NCBI GenBank assembly: GCA_964627085.1
Contig: CAZVIP010000003.1
Coordinates: 19,689-83,688, forward strand
From: an uncultured Candidatus Saccharibacteria bacterium
GTDB lineage: Bacteria > Patescibacteriota > Minisyncoccia > Phycocordibacterales > CAIZLB01
Direction: 5' to 3'
DNA: 64,000 bases
Under the pieces are notes generated by a model. That model ran no database searches. It was given only the letters and a program-made list of their open reading frames with translations, and was not told where the DNA came from. The translations under genes were made by a program, and so were the position numbers. Below are positions 11,523-44,072 of the stretch, piece by piece. Each line of letters opens with the position of its first letter. Positions within the stretch are counted from its first letter, which is position 1.

Positions 11523-12149
11523 CTATTCCTCGGCCCAGACCGAAAGAAGCGGTGTGATTCTTGCGACTGTTTCGATGATAGGACCTTCGAGTGAGATGTT
11601 TCTGATCTGGCCTGCATAATAAAGACTTGATACCAGATAAGGAAAACCCATCATGATCTCGGCGATGCGTGCCGCTCTTTCCCAAGCATGATTCAATTTT
11701 TCACCCTTGAGGTATTCTGGAACACCACCCTCCGAGCCGTGATACACGTTCGCAGGAAAGACATCGTGATACTGCCCGAAAGGTGGATAAAGCAAAGGTG
11801 AGGACGAATAAACACCAGCTGGAAAGACATCCACTATTGCCCCGTCCCGAAGCTCCAGCCAAGAATGTTCGATGAATCCACCATAATTAATCCTGTGTAT
11901 CGCATCATCATAACCAATGCTGTAATGACTAGACCCTGCAATATATCCATCGACGACAGTGACCTTATCACCAAACATAATCTTAATTGCACGCACCATC
12001 GAGTGACAATTCGGCATGACAACCTCACGTTGCGGGTGTGGCAACCTCTCATGGACATTAACAGCAAACCTTACAACGTTATCCATGAGATCATAGACCA
12101 GTGCATCGTGTGTTGTGACACGGCCTAAGGCTTCAGTTGTTGTATACAT
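11523..12149 (-). CDS. Hypothetical protein (208 aa), GC-rich relative to flanks
   Basis: Clean ORF with no recognised family. It contains an NCHS motif, Y/G-rich segments and a possible Cys/His active site. Confidence 0.5.
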   Translation of the reverse strand: MYTTTEALGRVTTHDALVYDLMDNVVRFAVNVHERLPHPQREVVMPNCHSMVRAIKIMFGDKVTVVDGYIAGSSHYSIGYDDAIHRINYGGFIEHSWLELRDGAIVDVFPAGVYSSSPLLYPPFGQYHDVFPANVYHGSEGGVPEYLKGEKLNHAWERAARIAEIMMGFPYLVSSLYYAGQIRNISLEGPIIETVARITPLLSVWAEE

Positions 12150-12254
12150 TCTGTATATCCCCTTTCTATTTAGTTAAATTTTGAACAAAACATGTGTGAA
12201 GAATTCTTTCTCCAACAACATGACCAAAAATACAATACAATATGTATGTAAAAA

Positions 12255-12295
12255 TAGCAATAAACCCCCACCCGCCTGACGGCGAGTAGGGGTTC
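12255..12295 (-). terminator. Intrinsic terminator downstream of fbaA
   Basis: Minus strand: CCCCTACTCGCC GTCA GGCGGGTGGGG followed by a T-rich run. Confidence 0.5.
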
Positions 12296-12356
12296 GATTT
12301 TGTATTATTGTGAGGCAGCGCTATGTGCTTTCCGCACAGACTTGATCAAATCTACT

Positions 12357-13460
12357 TTAACCAAAGAGTGTATTGACGTCTGTGCTCTTCAGTGCAGCAA
12401 ATGCCTCAACGATGCGGTCAGTCATACCAAGCTCGCCTGCCGAAAGAAGCTTCCGTGGGTCGTATTTGCTCTTGTTTGGCTTATCATCGCCCTCAGGGTT
12501 TCCAATTTGGGTCTGGAGATATGCAGTGTTTGCTTCCACATATTTCACAACCTGACGGGTCCATGCGAATTGTGTGTCGGTGTCGATATTCATCTTCACT
12601 ACACCATATTCGATTGCTTCATGAATCTCTTCGAGAGTTGACCCAGATCCACCATGAAAGACGAAATCAATCGGGCGACTATCCAAAGAAATACCAAGCT
12701 CTTCAGCCGCATGCTTTTGACATGCGGCCAGAATTTCTGGTTTCAACTTCACATTACCTGGCTGATACACACCGTGCACGTTGCCAAAAGCCGCTGCGAT
12801 AGTGAAATAGTCATAGCCCGTCTGAGCAAGAGTGTTATAGAGCGCAAAGACGTCTTCAGGACTGGTATATAGCTTGTCTGCTGAAAGACCAGAGTTGTCC
12901 TTGCCGTCTTCTTCACCACCAGTTGGACCAACTTCGACTTCGAGATACTGTTCGTTTCCGTGCAGAATCCGACTCCAGATGTCGGCTGTTTCGAGAATTT
13001 CTTTCAGAGGTTCAGTTGATAGGTCAAGCATGTGGCTTGAAAATGCCATTTGATCACCAGACAACAAGACGATGTCTCGATTACTCCTGTTTGCAAGAAG
13101 CGAAAGTGTCGGAAGATCTACGCGCTCAGCATGATCGGTGTGTAGAATAACTGACACACCGTATGCAAGTGAGAGGTTCCGAACCGTTTCAGCAAGAACT
13201 ATTCCGCCAACTTGGCGCCGACGATGTTTGTCTTCAACAACACCCTTCAGTTGAGGCCCCGCAAAATACTCGAGACCTCCCATTGATACCTGGATAATGA
13301 TTGGCGAATTGACTTTTGCAGCAGCCGCGAGCGCAGCCGTCACACCGGTGCTGTTGACCACATTGATTGCTGGTAATGCGCATTTCACTTTTTTAAGCCC
13401 CTTAAATAAACGCTTAATTTCTGGACCAGTTAGAATCCCTGGCTTGAGTTTTTTATTCAT
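12357..13460 (-). CDS. fbaA: Class II fructose-bisphosphate aldolase
   Basis: The motifs ILHTDHA, GGEEDG and FTIAAAFGNVHGVY, together with ~360 aa length, match class IIA FBA. It is GC-rich relative to its neighbours. Confidence 0.85.
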   Translation of the reverse strand: MNKKLKPGILTGPEIKRLFKGLKKVKCALPAINVVNSTGVTAALAAAAKVNSPIIIQVSMGGLEYFAGPQLKGVVEDKHRRRQVGGIVLAETVRNLSLAYGVSVILHTDHAERVDLPTLSLLANRSNRDIVLLSGDQMAFSSHMLDLSTEPLKEILETADIWSRILHGNEQYLEVEVGPTGGEEDGKDNSGLSADKLYTSPEDVFALYNTLAQTGYDYFTIAAAFGNVHGVYQPGNVKLKPEILAACQKHAAEELGISLDSRPIDFVFHGGSGSTLEEIHEAIEYGVVKMNIDTDTQFAWTRQVVKYVEANTAYLQTQIGNPEGDDKPNKSKYDPRKLLSAGELGMTDRIVEAFAALKSTDVNTLFG

Positions 13461-13694: not shown

Positions 13695-13767
13695 GTGCCG
13701 AGAGCCGGGCTCGAACCGGCGACCCCATCCTCTTCAGGGATATGCTCTACCAACTGAGCTACCTCGG
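13695..13767 (-). tRNA. tRNA-Phe (GAA)
   Basis: The reverse complement folds as a canonical cloverleaf: GCCGAGG / TAGCTCAGTTGGTAGAGCA / anticodon loop CTGAAGA / GGTTCGAGCCCGGC / TCTCGGC-A. CCA is not encoded. Confidence 0.9.
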
Positions 13768-13807
13768 CAAGTGAGGATATATGGAGATCTCTTTTTACAA
13801 AAAGACT

Positions 13808-14092
13808 CTACTTAATCATACTTCTGAGCAAATCAATTGATGATTCACTCTGCCCTACTCCTGACCCACCAATACTGGTATATGTCTGGAGCAGAACTTC
13901 GAGAAATGGTTGTATATAGTAAAATGCACCGAGAGAAAAGCCGATGATTACAACCCATTTGATAACGCTAATCGCAGACGATAAACGTACACGGCGATAC
14001 ACGCTCTGGATCATTTCATGATCTTTTTCGATGATTTCACGTACTTCTTGAAGTTCCTTTTGAAGGGCTTGGATTTCTTGATCCATGGACAT
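13808..14092 (-). CDS. Small protein with an N-terminal coiled coil and a C-terminal TM helix
   Basis: MSMDQEIQALQKELQEVREIIEK...VIIGFSLGAFYYI. It is possibly co-transcribed with the two genes upstream. Confidence 0.45.
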   Translation of the reverse strand: MSMDQEIQALQKELQEVREIIEKDHEMIQSVYRRVRLSSAISVIKWVVIIGFSLGAFYYIQPFLEVLLQTYTSIGGSGVGQSESSIDLLRSMIK

Positions 14093-14155
14093 ATGCTAGC
14101 ACAAAAAACTAGAGAAATCAAAAACTATACACTTAAAAAATATCCCTATTCCTAG

Positions 14156-14461
14156 CTATTCTTCCTTCTCAACCTCCTCGCCCACCTGACCCTCTACAGT
14201 GGTCAACACTTGGTCCATACTGTGCACATCGCTCCCAAGCCCGCCTACAGCCTTCATAAGAGGTACTGCAAACTGCCCCGCGGCTATGGCATGTCCTTCG
14301 AGAGTGCCATCATTAAGTAATTCATCGAGCCGGGCTTCAAGTGCCGCTGCATCAGCCTCTAGATTGGTCACAGCAGGTGCTTCAACCTGTGTATCAACTT
14401 TCACAGCATCACCCTCTGCTCTTGGCTGACTGATATCTAATTGATTTGGATTTTCACTCAT
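14156..14461 (-). CDS. Small acidic hypothetical protein (101 aa)
   Basis: Ala/Glu/Asp-rich ORF lying between the large coiled-coil gene and the small membrane-protein gene. Confidence 0.4.
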   Translation of the reverse strand: MSENPNQLDISQPRAEGDAVKVDTQVEAPAVTNLEADAAALEARLDELLNDGTLEGHAIAAGQFAVPLMKAVGGLGSDVHSMDQVLTTVEGQVGEEVEKEE

Positions 14462-14526
14462 GATTGTAATGTAATTATTATTTATATGATCTGTCTCTTT
14501 ATCCCAATTTTTGAGAAAAGAGTTTC

Positions 14527-16455
14527 CTACGCCGCACTCTCAACGTTCTCCTGCGCACTCAGCGCCTGCCTTGAAAGATATGCAAAGACATCATCCGCTA
14601 AAGCATCGAACTGCTTCGGTTTTAACTTTACAGACTTCTGCAATTGTGGATTTGCAAGATAGTAATTTCTGACGAGTGCAGTAAACTGCGCTTTATTTGC
14701 AGTTGTACCAGCCCTTCTATTTGAATCAAGAACAACTTTGCTAAACATATGTTCAGGATATACTTGTATTTTCGTGCCGTGAATTTTATTCCAAGCACTG
14801 GCCCATTCATCAAAACTAAATGCATCCTTTCGTTCATAACCCAGATCTGCATTTTCAATTTCAAGGAAACCATCAGAATTAACGTCACTATCTTCAAATG
14901 ACAAGTCACGCCCCATCATAAATGCCGCTTCAGGTTCAGTTTGTTTACCTGTTACAGCATTTTTTGTCTCAGCAAATGACTCACCTCGCAAGAGACCCTC
15001 TGGTACACCTTCTTCTGCAAAGCCAGTGTATGAGGCTTTTTTGATATCCCATTTCTGTAGTACTGTGCCGACTTTAATTAATTTTGCTTCAGCATCGACA
15101 AGTTGTCCGGCTCGTGCCGTGAGCTCTTTTCTCGATCTCATTATTCTATCCTCAGCCTGCTTAATTTTCTGCTTGAAGGTTTCTTTTAGATATGGATTAT
15201 TGAGTGCATCAGCTTTGATTTTTTCAAGACGTGCAGATTCACCCTGAAGACTGAGTCTCCATTCATGTATCTCGCGACTAAGGGCATCTTTCGTGGATGT
15301 CAATTCCTCAAATTTTTGTTTTTGCGGAGCTGTTCTTTCGTCAACTATTTGTGAAAACTCTTCGGCAATTAATTTTTTCTTATTTTCATGATTCAAAGCC
15401 TGTGCCTCATGAGTTTTTGCTTCGAGTTCTTTTGTATCACGTGCTTCGATTTCTTTTGCTAGTTTTGCCTGGAGTGCCTGATACCTTTTTTGAATATTTA
15501 CCAAATCTTTAGGAGAAATTTCACCCTCATATGCACGCACTTTATCAAGTTCTGCAATCTGTGATTTCACTTCATTTACACGACTTTCTGCTTGGACAAA
15601 TTCACCGCGCGCTTTTTCAAATTTTTTGGCGTGTCTATTAGCAAAAAAACCTTCTTTCATGGTCTTGCCATATGTGAGGATTCTATTTTTTTGAAAGACC
15701 GCAAAACTACCAACACCTTCGGCTGCTTTTTCAAAAGGTTTTGCAACGGCACTAAGAGCTTTCTTTGCTCCAGATTTTAGAGCACCTTCAGCTTCGTCTT
15801 CCTCACCCTCTGCATCATTTGCAACCTTGATTTCAGCAAAAGGTAAATCTGGTTTTGGCATTGATTCACCGTCTCGTGGATGAACCACTCCGAGCAGAGC
15901 ATTTTCGCGCTTGAGGTTCATTTTGATATCACGGTTGAGTTCATCCAAATTTGGCGGAACATACAATTCTGTCGGAACAGCATTATTTCTAGCTCTTTCA
16001 TCTGGATTTATCAATTGTGCAAAAGGACTATTTTCATAACCCGGTGGTGGTGGAGGCATTCGCATCTGTGACGGCTTTGGACTTCTGTCGGCTTGCTGAT
16101 CAGCGATACTCCTAAGCAGCGCTTCCTGATTTGCAATTCTTCGTTTTGTTTCATCTGAACTTGCCTGGCGCTCTCGCTCTTCCTCTTCTTCACTTGCAAT
16201 TCTTTCCCAACTACTTACAAGTGCAGGATCATTTGAACCCGGTAGATTTACTCTTTGTTCAGGACCTCTAGCGTTGCCTATATTTGCCGACCTACTCCTA
16301 AGTTCTACTGTCGGAGCAGCTGAGGGTGTATCTACACTAACCTCCGCATTGGACCTTCTAGGATAAGGTACATCCGGTGCTTTTGGTGCATCAGGTCTTG
16401 TTCTCGTTGCTTCCCCTGGAATAGTAACCGACATTGATTGTGGACCCTCTTTCAT
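14527..16455 (-). CDS. Large proline-rich / coiled-coil protein (642 aa), function unknown
   Basis: The N-terminus carries PPPPPGY and acidic stretches. The central region has long heptad-like segments (KELEAKTHEAQALNHENKKKLIAEEF...). The C-terminus is globular. Confidence 0.55.
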   Translation of the reverse strand: MKEGPQSMSVTIPGEATRTRPDAPKAPDVPYPRRSNAEVSVDTPSAAPTVELRSRSANIGNARGPEQRVNLPGSNDPALVSSWERIASEEEEERERQASSDETKRRIANQEALLRSIADQQADRSPKPSQMRMPPPPPGYENSPFAQLINPDERARNNAVPTELYVPPNLDELNRDIKMNLKRENALLGVVHPRDGESMPKPDLPFAEIKVANDAEGEEDEAEGALKSGAKKALSAVAKPFEKAAEGVGSFAVFQKNRILTYGKTMKEGFFANRHAKKFEKARGEFVQAESRVNEVKSQIAELDKVRAYEGEISPKDLVNIQKRYQALQAKLAKEIEARDTKELEAKTHEAQALNHENKKKLIAEEFSQIVDERTAPQKQKFEELTSTKDALSREIHEWRLSLQGESARLEKIKADALNNPYLKETFKQKIKQAEDRIMRSRKELTARAGQLVDAEAKLIKVGTVLQKWDIKKASYTGFAEEGVPEGLLRGESFAETKNAVTGKQTEPEAAFMMGRDLSFEDSDVNSDGFLEIENADLGYERKDAFSFDEWASAWNKIHGTKIQVYPEHMFSKVVLDSNRRAGTTANKAQFTALVRNYYLANPQLQKSVKLKPKQFDALADDVFAYLSRQALSAQENVESAA

Positions 16456-16537
16456 CTTGATAAGTATTTAAATAATATGTTAATTCAATATAAAAATTAT
16501 AACATATTAAAACCATCGTATCGCATATCTATCAAAT

Positions 16538-17545
16538 CTAGATAGCACGTTTCCATCTCGCAACAATCCCACAAGGGAGCAATCGTTGAGGCAAATCACC
16601 TTGTACTCTCTCTTGAATAAGTAATTCCCCGTTTTCTATTTCACCCCCAAACTTTTGAGCGAGTATACCAAGATTGTTTGCATAGGCCACAGATGAATAA
16701 CCTGATGCATATCCATTGAGAATAAAAAATAACGGTTCAGAAGTAAGTAGTTCATAGCACAATTCGAGAAGCGGAACTAAATCGCGCTCAATTTTCCAGA
16801 CCTCACCTTTTGCACCACGCCCGAATACAGGCGGATCCATAATAATGGCATCATATTTGTTTCCGCGACGGATTTCTTTTTTGACAAAGTTAACCGCATC
16901 TTCAAGCATCCATCTAATTGCATTTTCAGGAAGACCTGTTGCGAGCATATTTTCTTTTGCCCAAGTGATTGCACCACGTGAAGCATCCACATGTGTGACA
17001 TCTGCCCCAGCCTTTGCAGCAACAACACTTGCCCCACCTGTATATCCAAATAAGTTCAAGACTTTTGGTCTTTGGTTTGTTTCATCAGCCATTACCCCAT
17101 TTCCTTTTAGAGCGTTTTTAGCTTTGGTTACTTCTATGCATTTTTTAATCAAATCTTCACTCCATGACCAGTTTGCAAGTTGTTCTGGAAAGATAGCCGT
17201 ATGCTTAAAAGGTGTCAGTCTTGCATACAATTTTATCGAACCAAGAGAAATACAAGCACCGAGAGTCTTGTCGTCTGTGTATTCGAGCTTACCTTTTGCA
17301 GAGTCAGCAACATGCCATTTTCCTCTGTCTTCTCCGTCATTGTCTGCAAATTTTTCCGCGGCTGATCCGGGTGCAGGAGCTTTTTTGAAAGTGGCATCTG
17401 CTTTGTCCCATTCTGCTTGTATGCATCTTTTTTTCCAGATAGCTTGTGGGTCTGGGCGCGCAACAACCACTTTTCCATATCGCTCAAGTTTCATCTCATC
17501 ACCAGAGTCGATGAGTTCGTATTCAGGCTGTGGTTCAATAATCAT
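16538..17545 (-). CDS. Class I SAM-dependent rRNA methyltransferase (RlmI/RlmK-like)
   Basis: SAM-binding motifs LNLFGYTGGASV...VTHVDAS and IIMDPPVFGRG are present. A PUA-like N-terminus is also present. Confidence 0.7.
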   Translation of the reverse strand: MIIEPQPEYELIDSGDEMKLERYGKVVVARPDPQAIWKKRCIQAEWDKADATFKKAPAPGSAAEKFADNDGEDRGKWHVADSAKGKLEYTDDKTLGACISLGSIKLYARLTPFKHTAIFPEQLANWSWSEDLIKKCIEVTKAKNALKGNGVMADETNQRPKVLNLFGYTGGASVVAAKAGADVTHVDASRGAITWAKENMLATGLPENAIRWMLEDAVNFVKKEIRRGNKYDAIIMDPPVFGRGAKGEVWKIERDLVPLLELCYELLTSEPLFFILNGYASGYSSVAYANNLGILAQKFGGEIENGELLIQERVQGDLPQRLLPCGIVARWKRAI

Positions 17546-17554
17546 ATAAATATA

Positions 17555-19066
17555 TTACTTCAATTCCTTCATTATGTCTTCCAAATCTTTGTGGCGCACA
17601 TCGATTCCCTGTCCGTTCATCACGAGAAAATAATCCGGTTCGAATTCTTCAATAAATTCATAATCATGAGTGACAAGTAGGATGGAAACCTTTGATTGTT
17701 TACATGCACTCAAAAATATTTCCCAAGTGACTTCATCGAGATTGTTTGTCGGTTCATCGAAAATAATGCATTCCGCTTTTTTTCCAAAGACAAGAGCAAA
17801 ACGTACACGCATACGCTCTCCTCCTGATAGATATTTGATTTTTGTGTCTGCTTTTTGCTTATCAAAACGCATCATACCGAGAACTGCACGCGCCTCAGTC
17901 TCAAGTAAATTCAAATCATGCATAGCAATCTGCATCGGTGTTTGCTCTGGATCAAATTTTGCATGCTGGTCAAAATAACTAAATTTCATTCCTTCAATCC
18001 ATCTCACCTCACCTTCAGTTGGTGCATGCTCTCCAGTTAGACATTTGAGAAATGTTGATTTACCTGAGCCATTTCTTCCCAGGAGAACAATATGCTGACC
18101 AGAACGAATTTCGAAATGAACACCGTGGAGCATGTCACCTTTGGCACCTTCATATCTAAATGCCATATCAGTTGCTCGACAGATAAGCTTGCCATCATGG
18201 CTAATTGAGCCATTTGCGCCCTTGATTTTTATTTTTGATTGCTTGATATCAGGTCTGCCTTCATCTTTGTGCGAGCCTTTTAGCTCGGCAAGTTCTGCTT
18301 TTTTTCTTTGGTATAAAGCGACACCACCACCGCGAAATGCTTTTTTACCCAAAATTCTCACAGCTGCTTCCAGTTGCTTGATTCGTTTGGTCTCCGCATC
18401 GTAACTTCTCTGCATCCCTCCGATTCGCTCAAGCCGCGCATCAATATAATCTTGATAGTCACCCTCTGAGATATGCATTGTACCTCCATGTAATTCCCCA
18501 ATCTTTGAAGCGATAGAGTCTATGATTTTTCTATCATGTGAAATAAAGATAACCCCACCATTATATTCCTGGAGCAAATCAATAAGCGCCACACGACTGA
18601 CGATGTCGATATGGTTTTCAGGTTCATCCAGTAGGATAAAATCTGGATTGAGTGCGAGACCTGTACTTAATACTAAAATCTTCTGCTGTCCTCCGGAGAG
18701 TGCCCCGCACTTTTTTTCCTCAATTCTTGTGACGGAAAGACCAAGTCTTGAGGCGAATTGGTAGACCTTCCCTTTGAGTGCGTCACCGCATTTTTCTTTT
18801 ATATATTCTGATACTGTATGCTGATTAAAATTTGCATCGAATTCCTGAGGGATATATGCTGCGCGAATATGACCCTGATGCTGTACAAGTCCATTCTCAG
18901 GCTCTAGTTGACCAGCGATAATTTTAAGAAGTGTAGATTTTCCGGCACCGTTTTCACCAATAACACAAAGGCGCTCGTCCTGATCGCATTTAATTGAGAC
19001 ATTGGAGAATATGACTCTTTCTCCAACATTGTATGAAATATTTTTAAGTGTAATTGATTTTGACAT
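17555..19066 (-). CDS. ABC-F family ATPase (tandem ABC domains, no TMD)
   Basis: Two Walker A motifs (GENGAGKST; GRNGSGKST) and two signature motifs (LSGGQQ; LSGGERMR) are present, separated by a linker. Confidence 0.85.
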   Translation of the reverse strand: MSKSITLKNISYNVGERVIFSNVSIKCDQDERLCVIGENGAGKSTLLKIIAGQLEPENGLVQHQGHIRAAYIPQEFDANFNQHTVSEYIKEKCGDALKGKVYQFASRLGLSVTRIEEKKCGALSGGQQKILVLSTGLALNPDFILLDEPENHIDIVSRVALIDLLQEYNGGVIFISHDRKIIDSIASKIGELHGGTMHISEGDYQDYIDARLERIGGMQRSYDAETKRIKQLEAAVRILGKKAFRGGGVALYQRKKAELAELKGSHKDEGRPDIKQSKIKIKGANGSISHDGKLICRATDMAFRYEGAKGDMLHGVHFEIRSGQHIVLLGRNGSGKSTFLKCLTGEHAPTEGEVRWIEGMKFSYFDQHAKFDPEQTPMQIAMHDLNLLETEARAVLGMMRFDKQKADTKIKYLSGGERMRVRFALVFGKKAECIIFDEPTNNLDEVTWEIFLSACKQSKVSILLVTHDYEFIEEFEPDYFLVMNGQGIDVRHKDLEDIMKELK

Positions 19067-19316
19067 ATATATGGTGTTTGGCAGAATTTCTCATCTGACC
19101 AAATAATAACTGAGTATACACGAAAATGGCGATTTGTTTACCTTTTATTGTCGCAGGGTTAATCACGGTGTGGCGCTTTGAAGTTATTCACTTTTGGATT
19201 GTGGATATGTGTATTGCTAATTTAGCCATGAAATTAGGCGTTATTTGAGATTATATTTATCAGAATTTAATACTAGTCAAGATAGACTGCGGGTATTAAT
19301 AAATTTTATACTTCAT

Positions 19317-19649
19317 ATGACAATCATCAAAACCATGACAAAAAGAGCTAAGCCAACAGAATATGTTACAAAGTCAGAATTCAAGTCTGCTATGCTAAAT
19401 ATTGATAATAAATTTACTTCCATGGAAGACCGCATCGATAAAATCGATGCAAAATTCGATACCTTCAGAGATGAGTTTTTCGCATATGTCCGTGAAATTA
19501 TGGATGAACAGCGAGCACATTATGAGGAAACACATAAGCGCGAAATCGGTGCTCTGCAGGAACATATTGATCACAAGTTTGTAGTATTGATGGAGCACCC
19601 TGTTTTTACCGATTATCAAAAATCAGCAGAGGCGAGGATGGGTGTATGA
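19317..19649 (+). CDS. Small hypothetical coiled-coil protein
   Basis: ORF beginning MTIIKTMTKRAKPTEY... I recognise no family. Confidence 0.4.
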   Translation: MTIIKTMTKRAKPTEYVTKSEFKSAMLNIDNKFTSMEDRIDKIDAKFDTFRDEFFAYVREIMDEQRAHYEETHKREIGALQEHIDHKFVVLMEHPVFTDYQKSAEARMGV

Positions 19650-20020: not shown

Positions 20021-20095
20021 TGGTGCCCTCGGCAGGAATCGAACCTACAATTACCCCTTAGGACGGGGCAGTTATATCCATTTAACTACGGGGGC
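20021..20095 (-). tRNA. tRNA-Arg (CCT), CCA encoded
   Basis: Reverse complement: GCCCCCG TA GTTA AATGGATA TAAC ... anticodon loop GTCCTAA ... GTAGGTTCGATTCCTGC CGAGGGC ACCA. There is one C-A mismatch in the acceptor stem. Confidence 0.8.
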
Positions 20096-26621: not shown

Positions 26622-28094
26622 ATGAAAACTGCTACACTGAAAGTAACACACATCGGCCGAATCACCACAGTCTCTCAAGACTTTGCATACGGCTTTATCA
26701 GCATCGCCACGGTCTCCAAGATCGACGATATCCAACACGGTCTTGCGACCACAGTGGATATCTACATCCATCAAAATGATTGCAGCTCACGACCTCTCAG
26801 GGTCGGCATGCTTGTATCATTTGATGTCACACCTGACCTAACACGGGCGGGTGCGTTCCGAGCAATCGGAGCTGTTGAGGAAATCGAGGCAGAACTCCTC
26901 CCTGAAGGCCAACAGCCGATGGAAGGATTCAACGCTCTCGCGCCCTTTGCTGGGACATCCACGCTTGCACAAGCCGATAACGGTGGCTACATCCCGCCAA
27001 CACAAGCACAGGCACCAAAGATGAAGGCTTCCGACCCGGCAACACTCGCATTGGTTAGTGCAAACAACCCGGCGCCTGGCATCCCACGGGACCACACGGT
27101 CCCGGAAAACGTTGACGAGCTTATGGTATTGTTTCTACAAAACCAATACCCCTCGCTAGTTAGTTTCGGTGCGCACTTTGGTCTGGACTCGGATGAAACT
27201 GAGTTCAATGAGCAAGTATCAGCAGCGACAGAAGAACTGAGAGGACTCGGCATGGATACCCAAGTCGGAATCCTCGAGAACGAGGCAGCTCACTTCTTGT
27301 CATTCCGCAAGGCCTTGGTCATTATGAAGCGCGAAAAACTCATCCGGAAAGACGCCATCATCCCGATGGAGTTCTTACCAGACTTCTTCGCAGCAGTTCC
27401 AGTTTGGTTCCATTTCGGAAGTGATGAGGAGCACAGGTTGGCAACTAACGGCGATCAGCGTGGGGCCTTGCTGGTTCCACCAAGAATCAGAGCATTCTGC
27501 AGCATTTTCCCCAACCAAAACTGGGTAGACATGCTATTGATGTTCAATCGCCGTCCAAGAACACACCAGATGTATGCAGGAGATCAAATCCCACTAAGCG
27601 TCCTTCGTCGTGTTCGGGAGATGCTCCCACATTTTGATCACGTGGTCATCATGACCCCTTATCACGATGTGGCAGGAAGGGATTGGCAGAGGCTTAGCAC
27701 CCTCCGTAATCCTGACCCATACATCATTGGAGTCAAGGTAGGGGTTCCATACTTCTTCATTCTCGCCAGGTTCAGCGACAGCGGGACATTCCCTGCTCAT
27801 CACGAACTAATTGCAGACACAATGAAATTCTTGGACAACAACAAGGACAAGTTGAGAGGTTTCAACTCAACACCAGGTCTCGAGTGGCTCGGATACGACC
27901 CTATCAATCCCAGCCGGACAGTAGGGGACATTTCTTCCATGAATGGCATGGGTGTTGGTCGGGCAAACTCCCTCGGTGATCATCTCATCAAAACAGCCGA
28001 AGAAGCTCTCCTTGCTTTCGAGCAAGGAAAACTCTTCGATTGGCTCCGGGGAGCAAAGCTTGAACCAGTGACTGAAACAGCTTCGGCAAAATAA
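26622..28094 (+). CDS. Hypothetical 490-aa protein: cold-shock-domain-like N-terminus fused to a large domain of unknown function
   Basis: The N-terminus (LKVTHIGRITTVSQDFAYGFISI...TVDIYIHQNDC...VGMLVSFDV) follows the CspA pattern (KGxVKWFNxxKGFGFI...VFVHxSAI...VxFxV). The gene is GC-rich, with its own promoter, long leader and terminator. Confidence 0.6.
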   Translation: MKTATLKVTHIGRITTVSQDFAYGFISIATVSKIDDIQHGLATTVDIYIHQNDCSSRPLRVGMLVSFDVTPDLTRAGAFRAIGAVEEIEAELLPEGQQPMEGFNALAPFAGTSTLAQADNGGYIPPTQAQAPKMKASDPATLALVSANNPAPGIPRDHTVPENVDELMVLFLQNQYPSLVSFGAHFGLDSDETEFNEQVSAATEELRGLGMDTQVGILENEAAHFLSFRKALVIMKREKLIRKDAIIPMEFLPDFFAAVPVWFHFGSDEEHRLATNGDQRGALLVPPRIRAFCSIFPNQNWVDMLLMFNRRPRTHQMYAGDQIPLSVLRRVREMLPHFDHVVIMTPYHDVAGRDWQRLSTLRNPDPYIIGVKVGVPYFFILARFSDSGTFPAHHELIADTMKFLDNNKDKLRGFNSTPGLEWLGYDPINPSRTVGDISSMNGMGVGRANSLGDHLIKTAEEALLAFEQGKLFDWLRGAKLEPVTETASAK

Positions 28095-31014: not shown

Positions 31015-31222
31015 TATGATTTATGGTAATAAATAATTTCCGCAATTCGCAAAATGCGCGATCACCCCACCCCTATCGCCCAATATTGCCTTTTGCATAT
31101 TTTGGAATACTATATACACGGAAAATTCCATTCACGAGGTTTGGGTTAGTGTCAGGCAAAATACTTTGTCCCCTACTCACCTCAATCAGCACAACACGGC
31201 GAGAGCCAAACCACAATTGAAT

Positions 31223-32086
31223 ATGAAACCGCACACTATTAACCCAAAACTCCGCTATGCATGCATTGCTCGTGCAGAAATTGCTGCGAACCTAGCTCAA
31301 AAGAAAACTCGAACCAGCAGAGAAAATGCATGGAAAAACATCTGCCGCGACATTCGTCGAGGGCGCTCGACATTCGGAGACCCACAAAACCCTCTGCTCG
31401 ACAAGCTCATCTTGTCTCTTGGGCAGAGCGTTTTGCACAAACCTGACTTACTTGGAAGCATAGTAGAGAGGGCCAAAAGAAATATTACCGCCCTGCAAGA
31501 AGCTGGCAACACCGTGGTCTTCGTCGTCGAATATGAAGAAAAAGGTGCGAGGCTCGCATATATCGGGCCGTACGGAGGTGAAAGTCTCGGAAATCTTATG
31601 CCCAGCAATCCAGGAACACGCTCAGAGTTTCTTATATTTGCTGGTATCACTTCCGGTGATGCGAATGCTGTTGAAACCTTTGTCGATAGCATCTTGCCCC
31701 GAAAACCAAAAAGTGCCGCGGAGTTGATGGCAATTCCGGGTAGCCCTGAACCAGCAGTCGAACTACCATTTCAAAAATTCGTCATGGTGGACACAGGCAA
31801 ATTCATGTGCACAGATTCAGATGGACTATCTCCAGTGCAGGATGGGCCATGCCTAGTGGATCCAGAGCATGCTGAACAGTTGCGTCCAGCCCTGCTAGGC
31901 CTCGGATTACGTGATTTCGAAGTGTATATCTGGGGAAGCTGCTTATGCTGGGACGACTTATCCAAAAACGACCAGAACGGCTTAGTTATCAAAAACGTGC
32001 AGTCTGAACGGCTCCAGCAACGCCTCGGAGATATCCGCCTTGCATTACAGAGCCTCGGTTGGGGTCTGGAAACTGCCCCAGCATAA
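31223..32086 (+). CDS. Hypothetical protein (GC-rich orphan)
   Basis: Clean ORF from ATG 31223 (MKPHTINPK...). I recognise no family. It is followed by a strong bidirectional terminator. Confidence 0.5.
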   Translation: MKPHTINPKLRYACIARAEIAANLAQKKTRTSRENAWKNICRDIRRGRSTFGDPQNPLLDKLILSLGQSVLHKPDLLGSIVERAKRNITALQEAGNTVVFVVEYEEKGARLAYIGPYGGESLGNLMPSNPGTRSEFLIFAGITSGDANAVETFVDSILPRKPKSAAELMAIPGSPEPAVELPFQKFVMVDTGKFMCTDSDGLSPVQDGPCLVDPEHAEQLRPALLGLGLRDFEVYIWGSCLCWDDLSKNDQNGLVIKNVQSERLQQRLGDIRLALQSLGWGLETAPA

Positions 32087-40037: not shown

Positions 40038-42290
40038 TTGTATATTCTGCATATGCGATCTGGAGCAGAGAAAAATACTGTAAATCAAAAAGACAGAAGC
40101 ATATATGCGTTCGGTCATCCCGGGTGTATTTGTTCTGCAACACCGAGAGCGAATGTAGATAAGCCAATTTTTATTTCTGCACTTGAATCACTTTCACACC
40201 TCAGAACACTTGCGTATAGAAAGTTTGGATTAGGGCATGATTGTGAGAGTTATCTGGTAAGCGTTAATCACATGCGAAACTGTTGCCTATTTTTATCGCA
40301 GATATCAGCTGACGGGACCATAAATTATTACAATCGAAATTCTCAATTTTCTGAGTTGTATCCAGATGATATCGACGACACATTCACCTGTCTTCATATT
40401 TTAAATACATATCCAGACAGCAACCTTTTACCACCCCGTACAGGTGGTTATATACACCCAGAACTTATCGCTCGGACAATTGAGGGTTTGGATAAGATCA
40501 GGTGTAGACCATCAGATATACTAGGAGATACTGGATCTTGCCCGACCACAGATGATGGTATCTTATTTAATACTTGGTATAGCCACCTACCCCAATTCAA
40601 ATCAATTGACATTACAGCCCAAACTTCAGTAATTGCATTTTTTGATAGTGTAGGTTTTGACTGCACAAGACTTAAAGACATAGTCAACGAAGCTTTCATC
40701 CAGAGAATTCAATACGCAACATATTTTGAAGATACACTCTGCCAATTTTCTGAATTCTATCAATCACCTTTTTTGCCTATATATTTATTTAGTAGATCAA
40801 AACTAAGTGGTGATCAGCTAGAGTGTTTTGTCACATCAACATCAGCGCTATTACAGAAAAGTTTTTTCAGGCAGAACAATATTTCTTGTCACGCTTCAAG
40901 CGTGGGAAGCTGGACCAAAATAGACACACTTCTCCTTGTGTGTGCAATAAATTATCAATTACATAGCTTTCTTTCATCAAACAATACAGACCCGGACGTA
41001 CTATTAGGTGCGGGGTGTAATCAGAGCACTCGCCTTATTTATGAAATACATAAAATCAAACATATACTCAAGTATTTTGCAGGACAAAATCAAAGCAAAA
41101 TTTCATATTTAAAAGGATTGAATCCTACCAGATACCCGCTCTATATTGAGAGACAATCCGTGGAAGTAACAACATATGCACATAGCGAAACTTTTATAAA
41201 GAATATTGCAAGAGAAGCAATACTTGGGTCAAGACAAATTCTTTCTAAGTACAACAAGTCGAGTCACCTTGTGGACATTTCCACCCCGAGCTACACCTAC
41301 AAGGATCTAAACTCAATTACTCTCACCGATATTTGCACGGATGAAATACATCTTTGTCTTTTTGAATATATTGAAAAGTTTACCGCAGATGAAAAAACAT
41401 ATATTCAATCTTTAATCAGTGACCTCACAAATTCAACTGACTTTCAGATTGCAAAAGACATCTTTAATTCCAAATTTAGTCAGGTTATCACTTGTGCAAA
41501 TAAAATCGGGGGAGAAGCAGGAAGGCATATTTTTTATTTATATTCTGGAGTTTCAGAGTGGGTCACATATAGACCAGTACATCTATTATCAAATCATTTA
41601 CTCGGGATTATTGGTTTTTATCTATATGACAAAATAATCGACAAAGAGTTAAGTGTTACATATCTCCCTATATCAAAATATTGCATTCAAGTATTTGAAG
41701 AATGGCTTTGCGATATTTTCTTGTTAATTAATACAGACATGAAACTGTCCATATCTCACATACTCTATCTCATGAATATTTCATACCTTGAAGAAGTGCA
41801 AGGTAGACCAATTCCGATCAAAAATATTCACCACAAGTCTATTTGTAGCTCTATTCTGGCACTTATCGTATACCCAAAATACGCAAATCAAACCATCTCA
41901 TATTTTGAACACCTACAATGCGCAAGACAAATCTGTGATGATCACAAAGACTTTGACTCAGATTTCAAGACTGGAAAATCAACATCGATGACTCATTTCT
42001 TGCGAAATGTAAAAAACCAAAACAAAGAAAAAATAACAAGACAAAACAGCGACAATCTCATCCTTGGGCCAATACCAAAATTAGACGAAGAGAAAGTTTA
42101 CACTTACCTTACGAACAAGTGCGCCAAGACCATAGAATGTGTAGCGTACACACAAGACATAAAACTTAGACACATCTACACAAAGTACATAGAAAATCTT
42201 TGTGAAAAAATAGACAAAACAAAAATGGAGCAGAAAATACTTTCTAAACTACGAGATACCGCAGGGACACAGGGCACTCTCCCGCCTTAA
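40038..42290 (+). CDS. Large (750 aa) Cys-rich hypothetical protein with two Asp-rich DDxxD-type motifs (possible isoprenoid-synthase-like fold)
   Basis: DDIDDTF is near the N-terminus. QICDDHKDFDSDFKTGKST near residue ~640 resembles the second Asp-rich motif of trans-prenyl/terpene synthases. There are many Cys residues. The gene has the AT-rich host-like composition. Confidence 0.6.
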   Translation: MYILHMRSGAEKNTVNQKDRSIYAFGHPGCICSATPRANVDKPIFISALESLSHLRTLAYRKFGLGHDCESYLVSVNHMRNCCLFLSQISADGTINYYNRNSQFSELYPDDIDDTFTCLHILNTYPDSNLLPPRTGGYIHPELIARTIEGLDKIRCRPSDILGDTGSCPTTDDGILFNTWYSHLPQFKSIDITAQTSVIAFFDSVGFDCTRLKDIVNEAFIQRIQYATYFEDTLCQFSEFYQSPFLPIYLFSRSKLSGDQLECFVTSTSALLQKSFFRQNNISCHASSVGSWTKIDTLLLVCAINYQLHSFLSSNNTDPDVLLGAGCNQSTRLIYEIHKIKHILKYFAGQNQSKISYLKGLNPTRYPLYIERQSVEVTTYAHSETFIKNIAREAILGSRQILSKYNKSSHLVDISTPSYTYKDLNSITLTDICTDEIHLCLFEYIEKFTADEKTYIQSLISDLTNSTDFQIAKDIFNSKFSQVITCANKIGGEAGRHIFYLYSGVSEWVTYRPVHLLSNHLLGIIGFYLYDKIIDKELSVTYLPISKYCIQVFEEWLCDIFLLINTDMKLSISHILYLMNISYLEEVQGRPIPIKNIHHKSICSSILALIVYPKYANQTISYFEHLQCARQICDDHKDFDSDFKTGKSTSMTHFLRNVKNQNKEKITRQNSDNLILGPIPKLDEEKVYTYLTNKCAKTIECVAYTQDIKLRHIYTKYIENLCEKIDKTKMEQKILSKLRDTAGTQGTLPP

Positions 42291-42953
42291 TTATCTCCCA
42301 CTAAACGCCTCTGCGAGTGGCTTGCCATTCAAGAATACCGCAACAGTAGATGGTGCGTATACAGCATCAAGTGTTTTTTGGATCTGTGCGACAACTCGTG
42401 GACCATCACACACCCCGCCGATTTTTGGTGTGCCAACTAGTCTAACTTCGTACTGACCTGGAATATCTTTGATGGTCTTGATTGTAATTTTTGATCCAGC
42501 AAGAACATTGTATGGCTGTGTTGCTTTTGATGGATTCAATTTCTCTAGACCTTCAAACACTGTATTGTCAAAAAGCTGTCCAAGAACATATGTTGTTGCA
42601 TCTGCTTTTGTTGTTGCAAAAAGATCACCTACTGGAATTTCATACGCAACAACAGCGTCGCCACAACCAATACTCTGCGGATCAGTTGTATTACTTCCAA
42701 ACTTTTCTAAATCAATATAGTAAAGACTTGCTTTTGAAAGAGGTGCATCGAATACTTTTGCAGGATCTGGAACATCTTGCATTACAGCCTTATCAACATA
42801 CTGTTTCGGGTTAGAATCTGATGATCTGATAAGGAACACGAATGCGAAGATCGCCATTATTCCAACAACAAAAGCGGTAGTAAAAATCCTTCTATTTGAT
42901 GTAGGGATTTTTGAGATTGGATTCTGATTTGAATTTGGGTTTTGATTTGTCAT
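42291..42953 (-). CDS. Membrane-anchored GerMN-like domain protein (tentative)
   Basis: N-terminal TM helix. The C-terminal domain carries LDAVYAPSTVAVFLNGKPL, similar to GerMN/Gmad2-type domains. Confidence 0.45.
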   Translation of the reverse strand: MTNQNPNSNQNPISKIPTSNRRIFTTAFVVGIMAIFAFVFLIRSSDSNPKQYVDKAVMQDVPDPAKVFDAPLSKASLYYIDLEKFGSNTTDPQSIGCGDAVVAYEIPVGDLFATTKADATTYVLGQLFDNTVFEGLEKLNPSKATQPYNVLAGSKITIKTIKDIPGQYEVRLVGTPKIGGVCDGPRVVAQIQKTLDAVYAPSTVAVFLNGKPLAEAFSGR

Positions 42954-43136: not shown

Positions 43137-44042
43137 CTATTTTACACTTGATCTAAGCATTGCGATCCTCTCCTCTGCCGGTGGATGTGTCATAAAAAGG
43201 GCGTGAATACCTTTACCAGCAAGACCACCAAATGGATTTGAAATATAAAGGTGTGCAGTCGCGTCTCGTGCCGTCTCCATCGGCTCAGCATGTGTTGATA
43301 TTTTCTCAAGTGCCTTTGCGAGCCCTTCTGGATTTCTTGTTAAAAGAGCAGCGCTTGCATCTGCAAGAAACTCACGTTTGCGTGAAATAGCAAGGCGAAT
43401 CAATAAACCCGCAAGCGGCGCAAGTAAGATGAGTATAAAACCTATAATTATAGAGACACCACCCCTATTATCCTGACCATCCCTCGCACCAAAACCACCA
43501 AATAGCGCAGAGCGCAAAAAGATATCAGATGCAATAGAAAGAAACCCTGCAAGGACAACTGCAATTGTTGAGATTAAAATATCCTTATTTCCGATATGAG
43601 ATAGCTCATGTGCAAGTACACCCTCTAATTCTGATCTATCTAATATTCGAAGGAGTCCTGTAGTCACCGCAATTGCACTATGATTTTTATTTCTACCAGT
43701 TGCGAAAGCATTCGGCACCTGATCTTGGACCAGATACAAACGTGGCACAGGAAGGCCTGCGGTAATACACAAGTTCTCAACCATTCTACGGAGCTCAATA
43801 TATTCAGGGTCTTGTGGACCAATTTCCACTGCCTTTGCCATTTTGAGAGCAACAGTATCAGAATACCAATAGCTAAAAAAGTTCAATACCACACTAAAGA
43901 CTACCGCCCCATATAATATCGATCGGCTATTGAAATAAAAACTCAAAAACCAACCAACAGCAATAATAAGCGAAAACAGGAAGACCATGAGAAACAGTGT
44001 CTTTGTATTATTAGATTCCTGGTGTGTGTATAGTGTTGCCAT
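43137..44042 (-). CDS. htpX: Protease HtpX (M48 zinc metalloprotease)
   Basis: HELSHI zinc motif, TM helices and an HtpX-like N-terminus are present. Confidence 0.85.
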   Translation of the reverse strand: MATLYTHQESNNTKTLFLMVFLFSLIIAVGWFLSFYFNSRSILYGAVVFSVVLNFFSYWYSDTVALKMAKAVEIGPQDPEYIELRRMVENLCITAGLPVPRLYLVQDQVPNAFATGRNKNHSAIAVTTGLLRILDRSELEGVLAHELSHIGNKDILISTIAVVLAGFLSIASDIFLRSALFGGFGARDGQDNRGGVSIIIGFILILLAPLAGLLIRLAISRKREFLADASAALLTRNPEGLAKALEKISTHAEPMETARDATAHLYISNPFGGLAGKGIHALFMTHPPAEERIAMLRSSVK

Positions 44043-44072
44043 AAATACGCAATTATTAACTCTGGTTACTTG

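What the first reader, a model, noticed from the sequence alone, without database searches (positions are those of the whole stretch)
13808..16455. Putative three-gene operon: proline-rich 642-aa coiled-coil protein + small acidic protein + small coiled-coil membrane protein
Three co-oriented genes are separated by only ~60 bp each: 14527..16455, 14156..14461 and 13808..14092. They end next to tRNA-Phe. The large protein has a poly-Pro/acidic N-terminus, hundreds of residues of heptad repeats and a distinct C-terminal globular domain. It has no signal peptide and no recognisable catalytic motif. This architecture resembles secreted effector or tether proteins, or a cytoskeletal/division scaffold with membrane partners. 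I recognise no described family.
Basis: partly seen in the sequence, partly recalled or inferred. Interest (0 to 1): 0.55.

Follow-up and report, generated by a model that had tools for sequence, protein, structure and literature searches.

The report
Unknown helical protein pair in CPR
The three genes are real, but they are two separate things. One is a previously undescribed, fast-evolving gene pair: a long helical-bundle protein and its small acidic partner, found only in a narrow group of ultra-small (CPR) bacteria. It has been inserted next to the other, a much older and widespread small membrane-protein gene that almost always sits just upstream of tRNA-Phe. What the pair does is unknown.

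Summary
None matches a curated family (Pfam, NCBIfam, PHROGs, PADLOC) or a solved structure.

An exhaustive HMMER search found only 16 cluster representatives related to the 642-aa protein (A) among 1.84 billion. They share a ~420-aa module:
- an amphipathic start;
- a basic three-helix bundle of fixed length (228-240 aa);
- an acidic linker;
- a ~95-aa helical end domain.

This module sits behind a hypervariable acidic, proline-rich disordered N-terminus.

In all 13 contexts where the sequence could be checked, A is followed (-4 to +65 nt) by a small acidic helical protein of one family (B). This holds in unrelated neighbourhoods and in a homolog (P0019) that lacks the end domain. A-B is therefore the functional unit.

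The membrane protein C is different. At least 320 relatives occur in metagenome contigs. tRNA-Phe(GAA) follows it in 51 of 55 informative contigs. A is present in only 3 of the 80 fetched loci.

The order A-B-C-tRNA-Phe recurs in one clade, often with B/C start-stop overlap. In one relative the order is C-tRNA-Phe-A-B.

Function is unproven. My best guess is a cytoplasmic, membrane-proximal scaffold complex. The rivals are a toxin/immunity pair and a nucleic-acid binder. Interest is moderate.

The parts
14527..16455 (-). Gene A, 642 aa. Founding member here of an uncharacterised family: 16 cluster representatives among 1.84 billion proteins.
   Evidence: ORF. Exhaustive phmmer gives 11 relatives at E 1e-19..1e-45 and 4 weak ones that share the motifs. 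No curated family or solved structure matches.
15793..16455 (-). A residues 1-221: acidic, Pro-rich, largely disordered N-terminal region. PPPPP at 134-138; one charged helix at about 77-123. Hypervariable in length (139-553 aa) across the family.
   Evidence: Composition. AF2 pLDDT below 50 for most of it. Alignment.
15697..15792 (-). A residues 222-253: amphipathic segment with conserved aromatic and basic positions (..PF.K...W/F..FQ..R). Candidate membrane-interface helix (inferred).
   Evidence: Hydrophobic moment peaks at 1.83 around residues 231-248. Conserved columns. Low model confidence.
15004..15696 (-). A residues 254-484: basic three-helix core (pI 9.4, net +9). Motifs: HENKK..IAE.F..IV.ER..P, NNPYLK and LQKWD.KKA.Y.
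   Evidence: AF2 with the family alignment gives helices at 225-308, 315-419 and 421-481 with pLDDT 85-94. Core length is 228-240 aa and net charge +1..+19 in all 16 members. Invariant columns.
14824..15003 (-). A residues 485-544: acidic disordered linker, 25-88 aa in relatives. Many relatives carry a [YF]R[DNS]P motif here.
   Evidence: pLDDT about 30. Alignment.
14530..14823 (-). A residues 545-642: small all-helical C-terminal domain with invariant W...WN and conserved G[ST], QF..LV. Absent in distant members P0018 and P0019.
   Evidence: pLDDT 84-91. Alignment. pI 9.3.
14156..14461 (-). Gene B, 101 aa, pI 4.06. Member of a fast-evolving family of small acidic two-helix proteins, always encoded directly downstream of an A-family gene.
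   Evidence: A profile built from non-window members hits B alone among 742 window ORFs, E 1e-6. Leave-one-out recovers all 13 members, E 2e-4..9e-31, with decoys at E 0.3 or worse. Positions.
13808..14092 (-). Gene C, 94 aa (92 aa if it starts at M3, nt 14086). Cytoplasmic coiled N-terminus, a basic patch, one TM helix (KWVVIIGFSLGAFYYIQP) and a conserved tail of about 30 aa. A widespread CPR-type family.
   Evidence: 33-54% identity to relatives; 320 confirmed metagenome matches.. No curated family.
13695..13768 (-). tRNA-Phe(GAA). Conserved downstream partner of gene C.
   Evidence: Follows C in 51/55 unique informative contigs, median gap 36 nt. Also seen in L018, L092, L096, L097 and L099.
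16538..17545 (-). SAM-dependent methyltransferase (PF10672). Conserved upstream neighbour of A in the A-B-bearing clade; context only.
   Evidence: Synteny. Tree.
17555..19066 (-). ABC-F type ATPase, 9 nt upstream of the methyltransferase. Not present at this position in most relatives; context only.
20021..20095 (-). tRNA-Arg(CCT). The other boundary of the ancestral tRNA-Arg ... C-tRNA-Phe interval into which the methyltransferase and A-B are set.
   Evidence: L018. L096, L097, L099 and L100. 37/54 C-family contigs.
16496..16504 (-). Possible extended -10 element TGTTATAAT, 40 nt upstream of the A start codon. Weak, because the spacer is AT-rich.
   Evidence: Read directly from the sequence. 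Not reported by the consensus scan because no -35 element is present.

Best explanation
The locus combines two units of different age, in a Patescibacteria (CPR) chromosome.

(1) An ancient CPR-wide unit. Gene C encodes a ~90-aa single-pass membrane protein and lies directly upstream of tRNA-Phe(GAA), near tRNA-Arg(CCT).

(2) A lineage-restricted two-gene module, A plus B. In one clade it became fixed between a SAM-methyltransferase and C. In one relative it lies just after the tRNA instead.

A is a non-enzymatic modular protein made of:
- a hypervariable acidic, Pro-rich disordered arm;
- a short amphipathic segment;
- a basic three-helix bundle of fixed length (about 230 aa);
- an acidic linker;
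- a small helical end domain.

B is a small acidic two-helix protein.

Inferred mechanism, not shown. A and B form a cytoplasmic complex in which B binds or caps the basic helical core. The complex acts as a membrane-proximal structural scaffold. The amphipathic segment, and perhaps the cytoplasmic coiled N-terminus of C, would hold it at the membrane. The disordered arm would serve as a spacer or recruitment arm. In the A-B-C clade the three genes are probably co-expressed.

What is shown: the gene anatomy, the families, the conservation of the pair, the independence of C, and the lack of any known homolog. What is inferred: the A-B contact, the membrane association and the scaffold role.
For: The family is real and narrow. 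There are 16 hits in 1.84 billion representatives. They are not generic coiled-coil hits, because the matches span the core and the C-domain with shared motifs.

A-B pairing:
- A B-family gene lies -4 to +65 nt downstream of A in 13 of 13 sequence-verified contexts. One more context is known from gene calls only.
- This includes three lineages with unrelated neighbours (L090/91, L102, L183).
- It includes P0019, which lacks the C-domain. That points to the core as B's partner.

Charge is complementary in every pair. The core carries net +1..+19 and B carries net -2..-18.

The core has a conserved length and a confident three-helix model. There is no SP or TM in A or B. There is no enzymatic family or motif.

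Inheritance looks vertical, single-copy and syntenic, inside a housekeeping block (Zip-Grx-FKBP ... MT-A-B-C ... Hsp20-PrsW-aaRS-TsaD). No paralog was found in the window. There are no relatives on viral contigs.

B and C have start-stop overlap or gaps of 9 nt or less in L097, L099, L100, L103 and L105.

C is independent. A is present in 3/80 C loci and B in 4/80. tRNA-Phe follows C in 51/55. L018, L107, L108 and L111 have MT-C-tRNA-Phe without A-B.
Against: - No direct evidence exists for an A-B contact, membrane binding or any cellular role.
- The charges of A's core and of B do not covary significantly (rho -0.31, p 0.32).
- The amphipathic segment is modelled with low confidence.
- Structure searches give no significant neighbour. 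'Scaffold' therefore rests on the absence of catalytic features plus the architecture.
- A and B evolve much faster than their neighbours. A is 25-31% identical and B is undetectable by tblastn, against 55-73% for the neighbours. This is also what conflict systems look like.
- Much of the triplet's conservation could simply reflect whole-neighbourhood synteny among related genomes.
- L107, a close relative by the methyltransferase, shows no A-B at either known site. The module may therefore be dispensable.
Confidence: 0.4

Rival explanations
1. Toxin (or secreted effector) plus immunity or chaperone protein, with a colicin-like layout. This would comprise a disordered N-terminal 'translocation or targeting' arm, a long helical middle, a small basic C-terminal effector domain and a small acidic protective protein encoded immediately downstream. 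The epibiotic CPR cell would use it against hosts or competitors.
For: - The domain order and the small acidic downstream gene (pI 4.1-4.5) mirror nuclease-bacteriocin operons. That comparison rests on general knowledge. Colicin E3 appears only as a weak Foldseek hit (E 0.6).
- The C-domain is basic in most members.
- A and B evolve much faster than their neighbours, and the N-terminus is hypervariable.
- The distribution is narrow and patchy. A-B is absent at both known sites in a close relative.
- In L092 the pair sits just after a tRNA gene, a classic insertion hotspot.
Against: - No toxin or immunity family matches in Pfam or PADLOC.
- The invariant residues of the C-domain are aromatic (W, W, N, F), not catalytic-looking.
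- The most conserved part is the helical core, not the C-domain.
- P0019 lacks the C-domain yet keeps B. P0018 lacks it too, but its context was not examined.
- There is no signal peptide, no secretion system in the 64-kb window and no lysis gene.
- The module is single-copy, syntenic and vertically inherited in a housekeeping block.
- It is not found on viral contigs.
Confidence: 0.15
2. A nucleic-acid- or ribosome-associated factor. The basic helical core would bind RNA or DNA, and the acidic B would act as a mimic or regulator. The genes sit among translation genes.
For: - The core is consistently basic, pI 8-10.3.
- Neighbours are an rRNA-type SAM methyltransferase, ABC-F and tRNA genes in the main clade.
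- In L102 the neighbours are a pseudouridine synthase and ribosomal protein L19.
Against: - Translation genes are the commonest neighbours of anything in streamlined CPR genomes.
- Other distant contexts are cell-envelope genes (DUF11 repeats, PG-binding, OmpA in L090).
- No known nucleic-acid-binding fold or motif was found.
Confidence: 0.12
3. Membrane-shaping protein of the N-BAR/F-BAR or PspA/ESCRT-III type. An amphipathic helix plus a long basic helical bundle would bind and bend the membrane, with B as a regulator and C as an anchor. This is a specific version of the scaffold idea.
For: - The architecture fits: an amphipathic segment followed by a basic three-helix bundle about 230 aa long.
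- F-BAR (PACSIN2, FCHO2, srGAP2) and eisosome BAR proteins recur among the top, non-significant Foldseek hits.
Against: - All structural matches have E above 0.05, with TM-scores of 0.27-0.35 at best.
- There is no Pfam BAR, PspA or Snf7 signal in any member.
- Dimer geometry cannot be assessed with the tools at hand.
Confidence: 0.12
4. No functional link at all. The three are unrelated hypothetical genes that stay adjacent only because the whole chromosomal neighbourhood is syntenic in a young clade.
For: The entire Zip...TsaD block is collinear among the relatives. C clearly has an independent history.
Against: A-B adjacency survives in three lineages whose neighbourhoods are completely different, with gaps of -4 to +10 nt. 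It also survives relocation relative to C and the tRNA in L092.
Confidence: 0.08

Closest known systems
F-BAR / N-BAR domain proteins (e.g. PACSIN2, PDB 4bne; eisosome Pil1/Lsp1)
   Same: A long antiparallel three-helix unit of about 230-270 residues with a basic surface, preceded by an amphipathic segment. These proteins recur among the best Foldseek hits.
   Different: The hits are not significant (E 0.13-0.5, TM 0.35 or less). There is no sequence or profile similarity. Dimerisation and curvature are unknown. BAR proteins have no obligatory small acidic partner gene.
Nuclease-type colicin/pyocin operons (toxin - small acidic immunity protein - lysis protein)
   Same: The order is a disordered N-terminus, a long helical middle and a small, mostly basic C-terminal domain. 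An acidic protein of about 85-110 aa is encoded immediately downstream on the same strand, followed by a small membrane-associated protein. Divergence is rapid.
   Different: No toxin or immunity family is detectable. The helical core, not the end domain, is the conserved part. B persists where the end domain is missing. C is a CPR-wide gene tied to tRNA-Phe, not a dedicated lysis gene. The module is chromosomal, syntenic and single-copy.
PspA-PspB-PspC / LiaH-LiaI membrane-stress modules
   Same: A peripheral helical-bundle protein is co-encoded with small single-pass membrane protein(s) that could anchor it.
   Different: There is no PspA/IM30 (PF04012) signal in any member. The helix lengths and the extra domains differ. 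B is soluble and acidic. C exists mostly without A.
Polar or attachment-organelle scaffolds with acidic proline-rich regions (Mycoplasma HMW1/HMW3/P65; Caulobacter PopZ). Comparison from general knowledge only.
   Same: Cytoplasmic, with no signal peptide, an acidic Pro-rich disordered region plus helical oligomerising parts, lineage-specific and fast-evolving.
   Different: No homology was tested or found. There are no EAGR boxes. The resemblance is compositional and architectural only.
Tail-anchored small membrane proteins ElaB/YqjD/YgaM (DUF883) - for gene C
   Same: About 100 aa, with a helical cytoplasmic N-terminus and a single TM helix near the C-terminus.
   Different: There is no DUF883 hit. 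C has a conserved extracytoplasmic tail of about 30 aa and a unique, conserved linkage to tRNA-Phe.

Membership tests
SMC / Rad50-like coiled-coil ATPases | N- and C-terminal ABC-type ATPase head (Walker A/B, signature motif) flanking the coiled coil | tested here: not met
   No SMC_N or AAA hit for A or its relatives. The only signal is a PADLOC LmuB match at E 0.056 over the helical part. Foldseek SMC-arm hits have E above 0.06.
EzrA (PF06160) | N-terminal TM anchor followed by spectrin-like triple-helix repeats that match PF06160 | tested here: not met
   There is no TM helix in A. PF06160 matches only 1 of 14 family members, at E 0.048 and far below the cut-off.
DivIVA / GpsB; PspA/IM30/ESCRT-III | Match to the family profiles (PF05103; PF04012/Snf7) with their characteristic N-terminal lipid-binding domain or helical hairpin | tested here: not met
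   No hit at E up to 1 in A or in any of the 14 trimmed members. There is no PDB sequence hit by profile.
BAR / F-BAR domain superfamily | Curved dimer of three-helix monomers; significant structural similarity to a BAR fold | tested here: inconclusive
   The best F-BAR match is PACSIN2, E 0.13-0.2, TMq 0.26-0.27, TMt 0.35. Dimer geometry is not testable with these tools.
ClyA/Hbl/Nhe/Ahl alpha-pore-forming toxins | Elongated helical bundle carrying a hydrophobic head (beta-tongue or hydrophobic helical hairpin) | tested here: not met
   Foldseek gives E 0.1-0.6. A has no hydrophobic stretch; the highest 19-residue Kyte-Doolittle mean is about 0.2.
Colicin-type or polymorphic toxin plus immunity | A recognisable C-terminal toxin domain with catalytic residues, and a cognate immunity protein that depends on that domain | tested here: not met
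   There are no toxin or immunity families. The invariant C-domain residues are W, W and N. B is retained next to P0019, which lacks the C-domain. Toxicity itself is not testable here.
WXG100 / T7SS small helical substrates (for B) | Helix-turn-helix of about 100 aa with a central W-x-G motif, and linkage to an EssC/EccC ATPase | tested here: not met
   There is no WxG column in the B alignment and no WXG100 hit. No FtsK/EssC-like gene lies in the window.
A-B module as defined here (new family) | An A-type core with the motifs HENK..IA..[YF]A..V..R..P, NNP[YF], QKW..KK..Y, plus a B-family gene directly downstream | tested here: met
   The window's A matches the family profile at E 1e-135, though that profile includes it. 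Independent pairwise E-values are 1e-19..1e-45. B is recovered by a leave-one-out profile at E 1.2e-6.
C family (new; CPR small membrane protein upstream of tRNA-Phe) | About 90-115 aa, a coiled N-terminus, a TM helix with KW[VI].II[GA]..G[AT][FY]Y[YF][VI][QE]P, and tRNA-Phe(GAA) downstream | tested here: met
   33-54% identity to relatives. tRNA-Phe lies 39 nt downstream. The family pattern is met in 51/55 contigs.

The most novel reading that the evidence does not exclude
A-B is a previously unknown CPR-specific membrane-organising machine. An N-BAR-like basic helical bundle (A) would be switched or capped by a dedicated acidic partner (B) and docked through the CPR-wide tail-anchored protein C. 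It would shape or mark the division or host-attachment site in ultra-small episymbiotic bacteria that lack most known division regulators.
Probability: 0.1. Interest if true: 0.7.

Novelty: new variant of a known kind. Interest (0 to 1): 0.4.

Why it matters
CPR/Patescibacteria make up a large share of bacterial diversity. They are mostly uncultured, and they lack many canonical cell-biology genes. A conserved, non-enzymatic helical-bundle protein with an obligatory small partner is a concrete candidate for lineage-specific cell architecture. The alternative is a conflict system. Either way it comes with defined domains and motifs that can be tested in vitro.

This analysis also corrects the unit of study. 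A-B is the module. C is a separate, far more widespread gene whose near-universal position directly upstream of tRNA-Phe is itself unexplained.

Still, uncharacterised lineage-specific families are common in CPR genomes, and no function is demonstrated. The finding is of moderate rather than high interest.

Tried and rejected
Searches that found nothing:
- Word-indexed homology searches with full-length A, with its C-terminal 173 aa and with the family profile returned only A itself, a fragment, or one known member.
- Pfam, NCBIfam, PHROGs and PADLOC gave nothing for A, B or C. Pfam on every family member gave no consistent hit.
- PDB by sequence and by profile gave only lamin/keratin-type coiled-coil noise.
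- Foldseek of the single-sequence and the MSA-based models against PDB and BFVD gave no hit with E at or below 0.001.
- IMG/VR scans for the A and C families found none.
- Rfam found only tRNAs.
- Literature searches on CPR coiled-coil or proline-rich proteins and on the run accessions found nothing relevant.

Searches that failed or were limited:
It returned relatives at 50% identity or less, without A or B, and only L018 carried C.
- The metagenome scan with the divergent A alignment failed because it has no conserved 7-10-residue stretch.

Ideas tested and dropped:
- Paralogs of A, B or C in the window: none.
- Charge covariation between the A core and B: not significant.
- A third, small basic ORF upstream of A in L102 and L183: no similarity between the two.
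- An A-like N-terminus after the tRNA in L107: none.
- The promoter and terminator scan is at background level.
- SMC, EzrA, DivIVA, PspA, ClyA-type and WXG100 memberships are rejected, as listed in the membership table.
Full report
OBSERVATION

The window carries exactly the ORFs described: A at 14527..16455(-) 642 aa, B at 14156..14461(-) 101 aa and C at 13808..14092(-) 94 aa. The gaps are 65 and 63 nt. tRNA-Phe(GAA) at 13695..13768(-) lies 39 nt after C.

The co-directional run is longer than three genes. An ABC-F ATPase (17555..19066) and a PF10672 SAM-methyltransferase (16538..17545) lie upstream, 9 and 82 nt apart. tRNA-Arg(CCT) lies at 20021..20095.

The same DNA, with at most one mismatch, occurs in contigs from at least 8 sequencing runs.

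Sequence features:
- A has a PPPPP run (134-138) and an acidic 221-aa N-terminus (pI 4.9, 13% Pro). It has no hydrophobic segment.
- B has pI 4.06.
- C has a coiled N-terminus, a basic patch and one TM helix.

ORGANISM

The methyltransferase's relatives among named genomes are Patescibacteria/CPR MAGs (Paceibacterota-, Nomurabacteria- and Saccharibacteria-labelled), at 50% identity or less. The window shows a small-genome, housekeeping gene content: aaRS, TsaD, PrsW, Hsp20, MurJ, class II RNR, RNase J, LemA/HtpX. The class within the CPR is not resolved.

NO KNOWN FAMILY

Pfam, NCBIfam, PHROGs and PADLOC give nothing above noise for A, B or C. PDB sequence searches give only lamin/keratin coiled-coil noise.

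THE A FAMILY

Word-indexed searches failed because they were swamped by low-complexity words. The exhaustive HMMER scan of 1.84 billion representatives returned only 16 proteins. One is a fragment of A itself. Eleven are clear relatives (E 1e-19..1e-45, 27-37% identity, 512-977 aa). Four are weak but share the motifs.

With so few hits, these are not generic coiled-coil matches.

The conserved module corresponds to A residues about 215-642:
- An amphipathic start (..PF.K...W..FQ..R).
- A core with HENK[KR]..IA..[YF]A..V[DN][EN]R..P, NNP[YF]LK and LQKW[DE]NKKA.Y.
- A variable acidic linker, often with [YF]RDP.
- An end domain with F.[FY][DE].W...WN.L.GS[KR]L and QF..LV.

Across members the N-terminal region varies from 139 to 553 aa and is acidic and often Pro-rich. 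The core keeps 228-240 aa and is always basic (net +1..+19).

AlphaFold with the 14-sequence alignment gives mean pLDDT 76.5. It predicts three long helices (A residues 225-308, 315-419 and 421-481; pLDDT 85-94), a disordered linker and a helical end domain (548-641; pLDDT 84-91). The single-sequence model agrees on the helices.

Foldseek against PDB and BFVD finds nothing with E at or below 0.001. The top hits are a designed three-helix bundle, F-BAR PACSIN2, ClyA/Ahl toxins, SMC arms and phage tail proteins. No Pfam family recurs among the members.

GENOMIC CONTEXT OF A RELATIVES

In the main clade the locus lies in the same collinear block as in the window: Zip-Grx-FKBP ... methyltransferase-A-small-small ... 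Hsp20-PrsW-aaRS-TsaD.

The neighbours are 55-73% identical to the window's proteins. A is only 25-31% identical, C is 42-53%, and B is undetectable by tblastn. A and B therefore evolve much faster than their surroundings.

THE B FAMILY

The gene immediately downstream of every A relative encodes a 78-118-aa acidic protein, with pI 4.1-4.5 in all but one (L102, pI 5.5). Pairwise similarity is weak but transitive.

A profile built without the window sequence picks window B as the only hit among 742 window ORFs, at E 1e-6. In a leave-one-out test, each of the 13 proteins is the top hit against 741 decoys. E-values run from 2e-4 to 9e-31, and the next best decoy scores 0.3 or worse.

The pair is kept in three lineages with unrelated neighbourhoods:
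- L090/91, among DUF11/PG-binding/OmpA genes;
- L102, between a pseudouridine synthase and L19;
- L183.

The gaps there are -4 to +10 nt. The pair is also kept next to P0019, which lacks the end domain.

A-B is therefore the conserved functional unit, and B's likely partner is the helical core. Charges are complementary in all 12 pairs, but they do not covary significantly.

THE C FAMILY

C is well conserved in relatives (33-54% identity) but has a different history.

In the 80 fetched loci, A occurs in 3, B in 4 and the methyltransferase in 6. Among 67 unique sequences:
- tRNA-Phe(GAA) follows C on the same strand within 400 nt in 51 of 55 informative contigs, with a median gap of 36 nt.
- tRNA-Arg(CCT) lies within 1.3 kb upstream in 37 of 54.

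L018, a Paceibacterota MAG, shows tRNA-Arg - methyltransferase - C - tRNA-Phe with no A-B.

In L096, L097, L099, L103 and L105 the order is MT-A-B-C-tRNA-Phe. L100 shows MT-A-B-C, but its contig ends before any tRNA-Phe could be seen. B and C often overlap or lie within 9 nt of each other. In L092 the order is MT-C-tRNA-Phe-A-B.

A methyltransferase tree puts all A-B-bearing loci in one clade with the window. L108 and L111 (C only) are basal. L107 sits beside the window (71% identity), yet it has MT-C-tRNA-Phe and no A-like ORF within 500 nt after the tRNA.

So A-B was added to an older tRNA-Arg...C-tRNA-Phe interval. It can move or be lost.

C has no curated family. Its only signal is a sub-threshold, architecture-level resemblance to coil+TM stalks.

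MOBILE OR VIRAL ORIGIN

No A or C relatives occur on IMG/VR contigs. There are no PHROG hits. The window holds no paralogs.

INTERPRETATION

Shown:
- Three real genes.
- Two new families (A, B) forming a conserved pair.
- A third new but widespread family (C) tied to tRNA-Phe.
- No homology to SMC, EzrA, DivIVA, PspA, BAR, pore-forming toxins, colicins or WXG100 proteins.

Inferred: A and B form a cytoplasmic complex, with acidic B on the basic core. The complex acts as a membrane-proximal scaffold. The amphipathic segment and possibly C's cytoplasmic coil would provide membrane attachment, and the disordered arm would be a variable spacer or recruitment region.

I give this about 0.4.

Rivals:
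- A colicin-like toxin or effector plus an immunity or chaperone protein (0.15). The layout, the charge pattern, the rapid evolution and the patchiness favour it. The lack of toxin signatures, the conserved core and the retention of B without the end domain count against it.
- A nucleic-acid or ribosome-associated factor (0.12).
- A specific BAR/PspA-like membrane shaper (0.12).
- Mere synteny (0.08). This is already contradicted for A-B.

VERDICT

- The unit is A-B, with C an independent, older neighbour.
- The transcription unit may extend upstream to the methyltransferase and ABC-F. A possible extended -10 element (TGTTATAAT, 16496-16504) lies 40 nt before A, but it sits in AT-rich spacer.
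- This is a new, narrowly distributed family pair of unknown function in CPR bacteria. It is moderately interesting, and it is testable with multimer modelling and simple heterologous assays.

Noticed in passing
window 13695..14092 (-); loci L103-L182, L018, L092, L096, L097, L099: The C-family gene encodes a single-pass membrane protein of about 90 aa. It is embedded in a conserved tRNA cluster in CPR-type contigs. tRNA-Phe(GAA) follows it in 51/55 unique informative contigs, with a median gap of 36 nt. tRNA-Arg(CCT), and often tRNA-Gly(CCC), lie just upstream. At least 320 relatives exist and there is no curated family. This suggests an mRNA co-transcribed with tRNAs, but the reason is unexplained.
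   Followed up: partly
window 11523..13460 (-) versus L099, L096, L097, L092: The stretch between tRNA-Phe and Hsp20 is variable. The window has a class II fructose-bisphosphate aldolase plus an orphan 208-aa ORF, with no homolog found in any related locus. L099 goes straight from tRNA-Phe to Hsp20. L096 and L097 carry asparaginase fragments. L092 has the A-B pair there. It looks like a tRNA-adjacent insertion hotspot.
   Followed up: partly
window 17555..19066 (-) and 19245..19649 (+): The ABC-F ATPase and a 134-aa coiled-coil ORF (weak DUF16/JetA-like hits only) lie between tRNA-Arg(CCT) and the methyltransferase. They are absent from the fetched syntenic relatives, which often have purD (GARS) there instead. 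A JGI relative has an ABC_tran gene on the opposite strand.
   Followed up: no
window 51661..54117 (+): RNase J is 818 aa. It has an N-terminal low-complexity extension of about 275 aa that is rich in Q/G/N/P/R (MNYRNTNNAPYGQRDSRPQQGGYGNNYGPRGG...). Long disordered N-terminal extensions are therefore not unique to protein A in this genome.
   Followed up: partly
window 26622..28094 (+), 40038..42290 (+), 54579..55823 (+), 31166..32086 (+), 42291..42953 (-): Several further sizeable ORFs (490, 750, 414, 306 and 220 aa) have no Pfam family at E 1e-5 or better. None resembles A, B or C.
   Followed up: no
L090 2996..7820 (+); L091: The distant A-B pair (P0020) lies directly downstream of a 1317-aa DUF11-repeat protein and a DUF11 + PG_binding_1 protein, near OmpA, on a 57% GC contig. 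In L091 an rve-family integrase follows the pair. The organism may not be a CPR bacterium.
   Followed up: partly
window 43137..44642 (-): A LemA-family gene is adjacent to an M48 (HtpX-like) peptidase. This is a known membrane-associated gene pair, unrelated to the finding.
   Followed up: no
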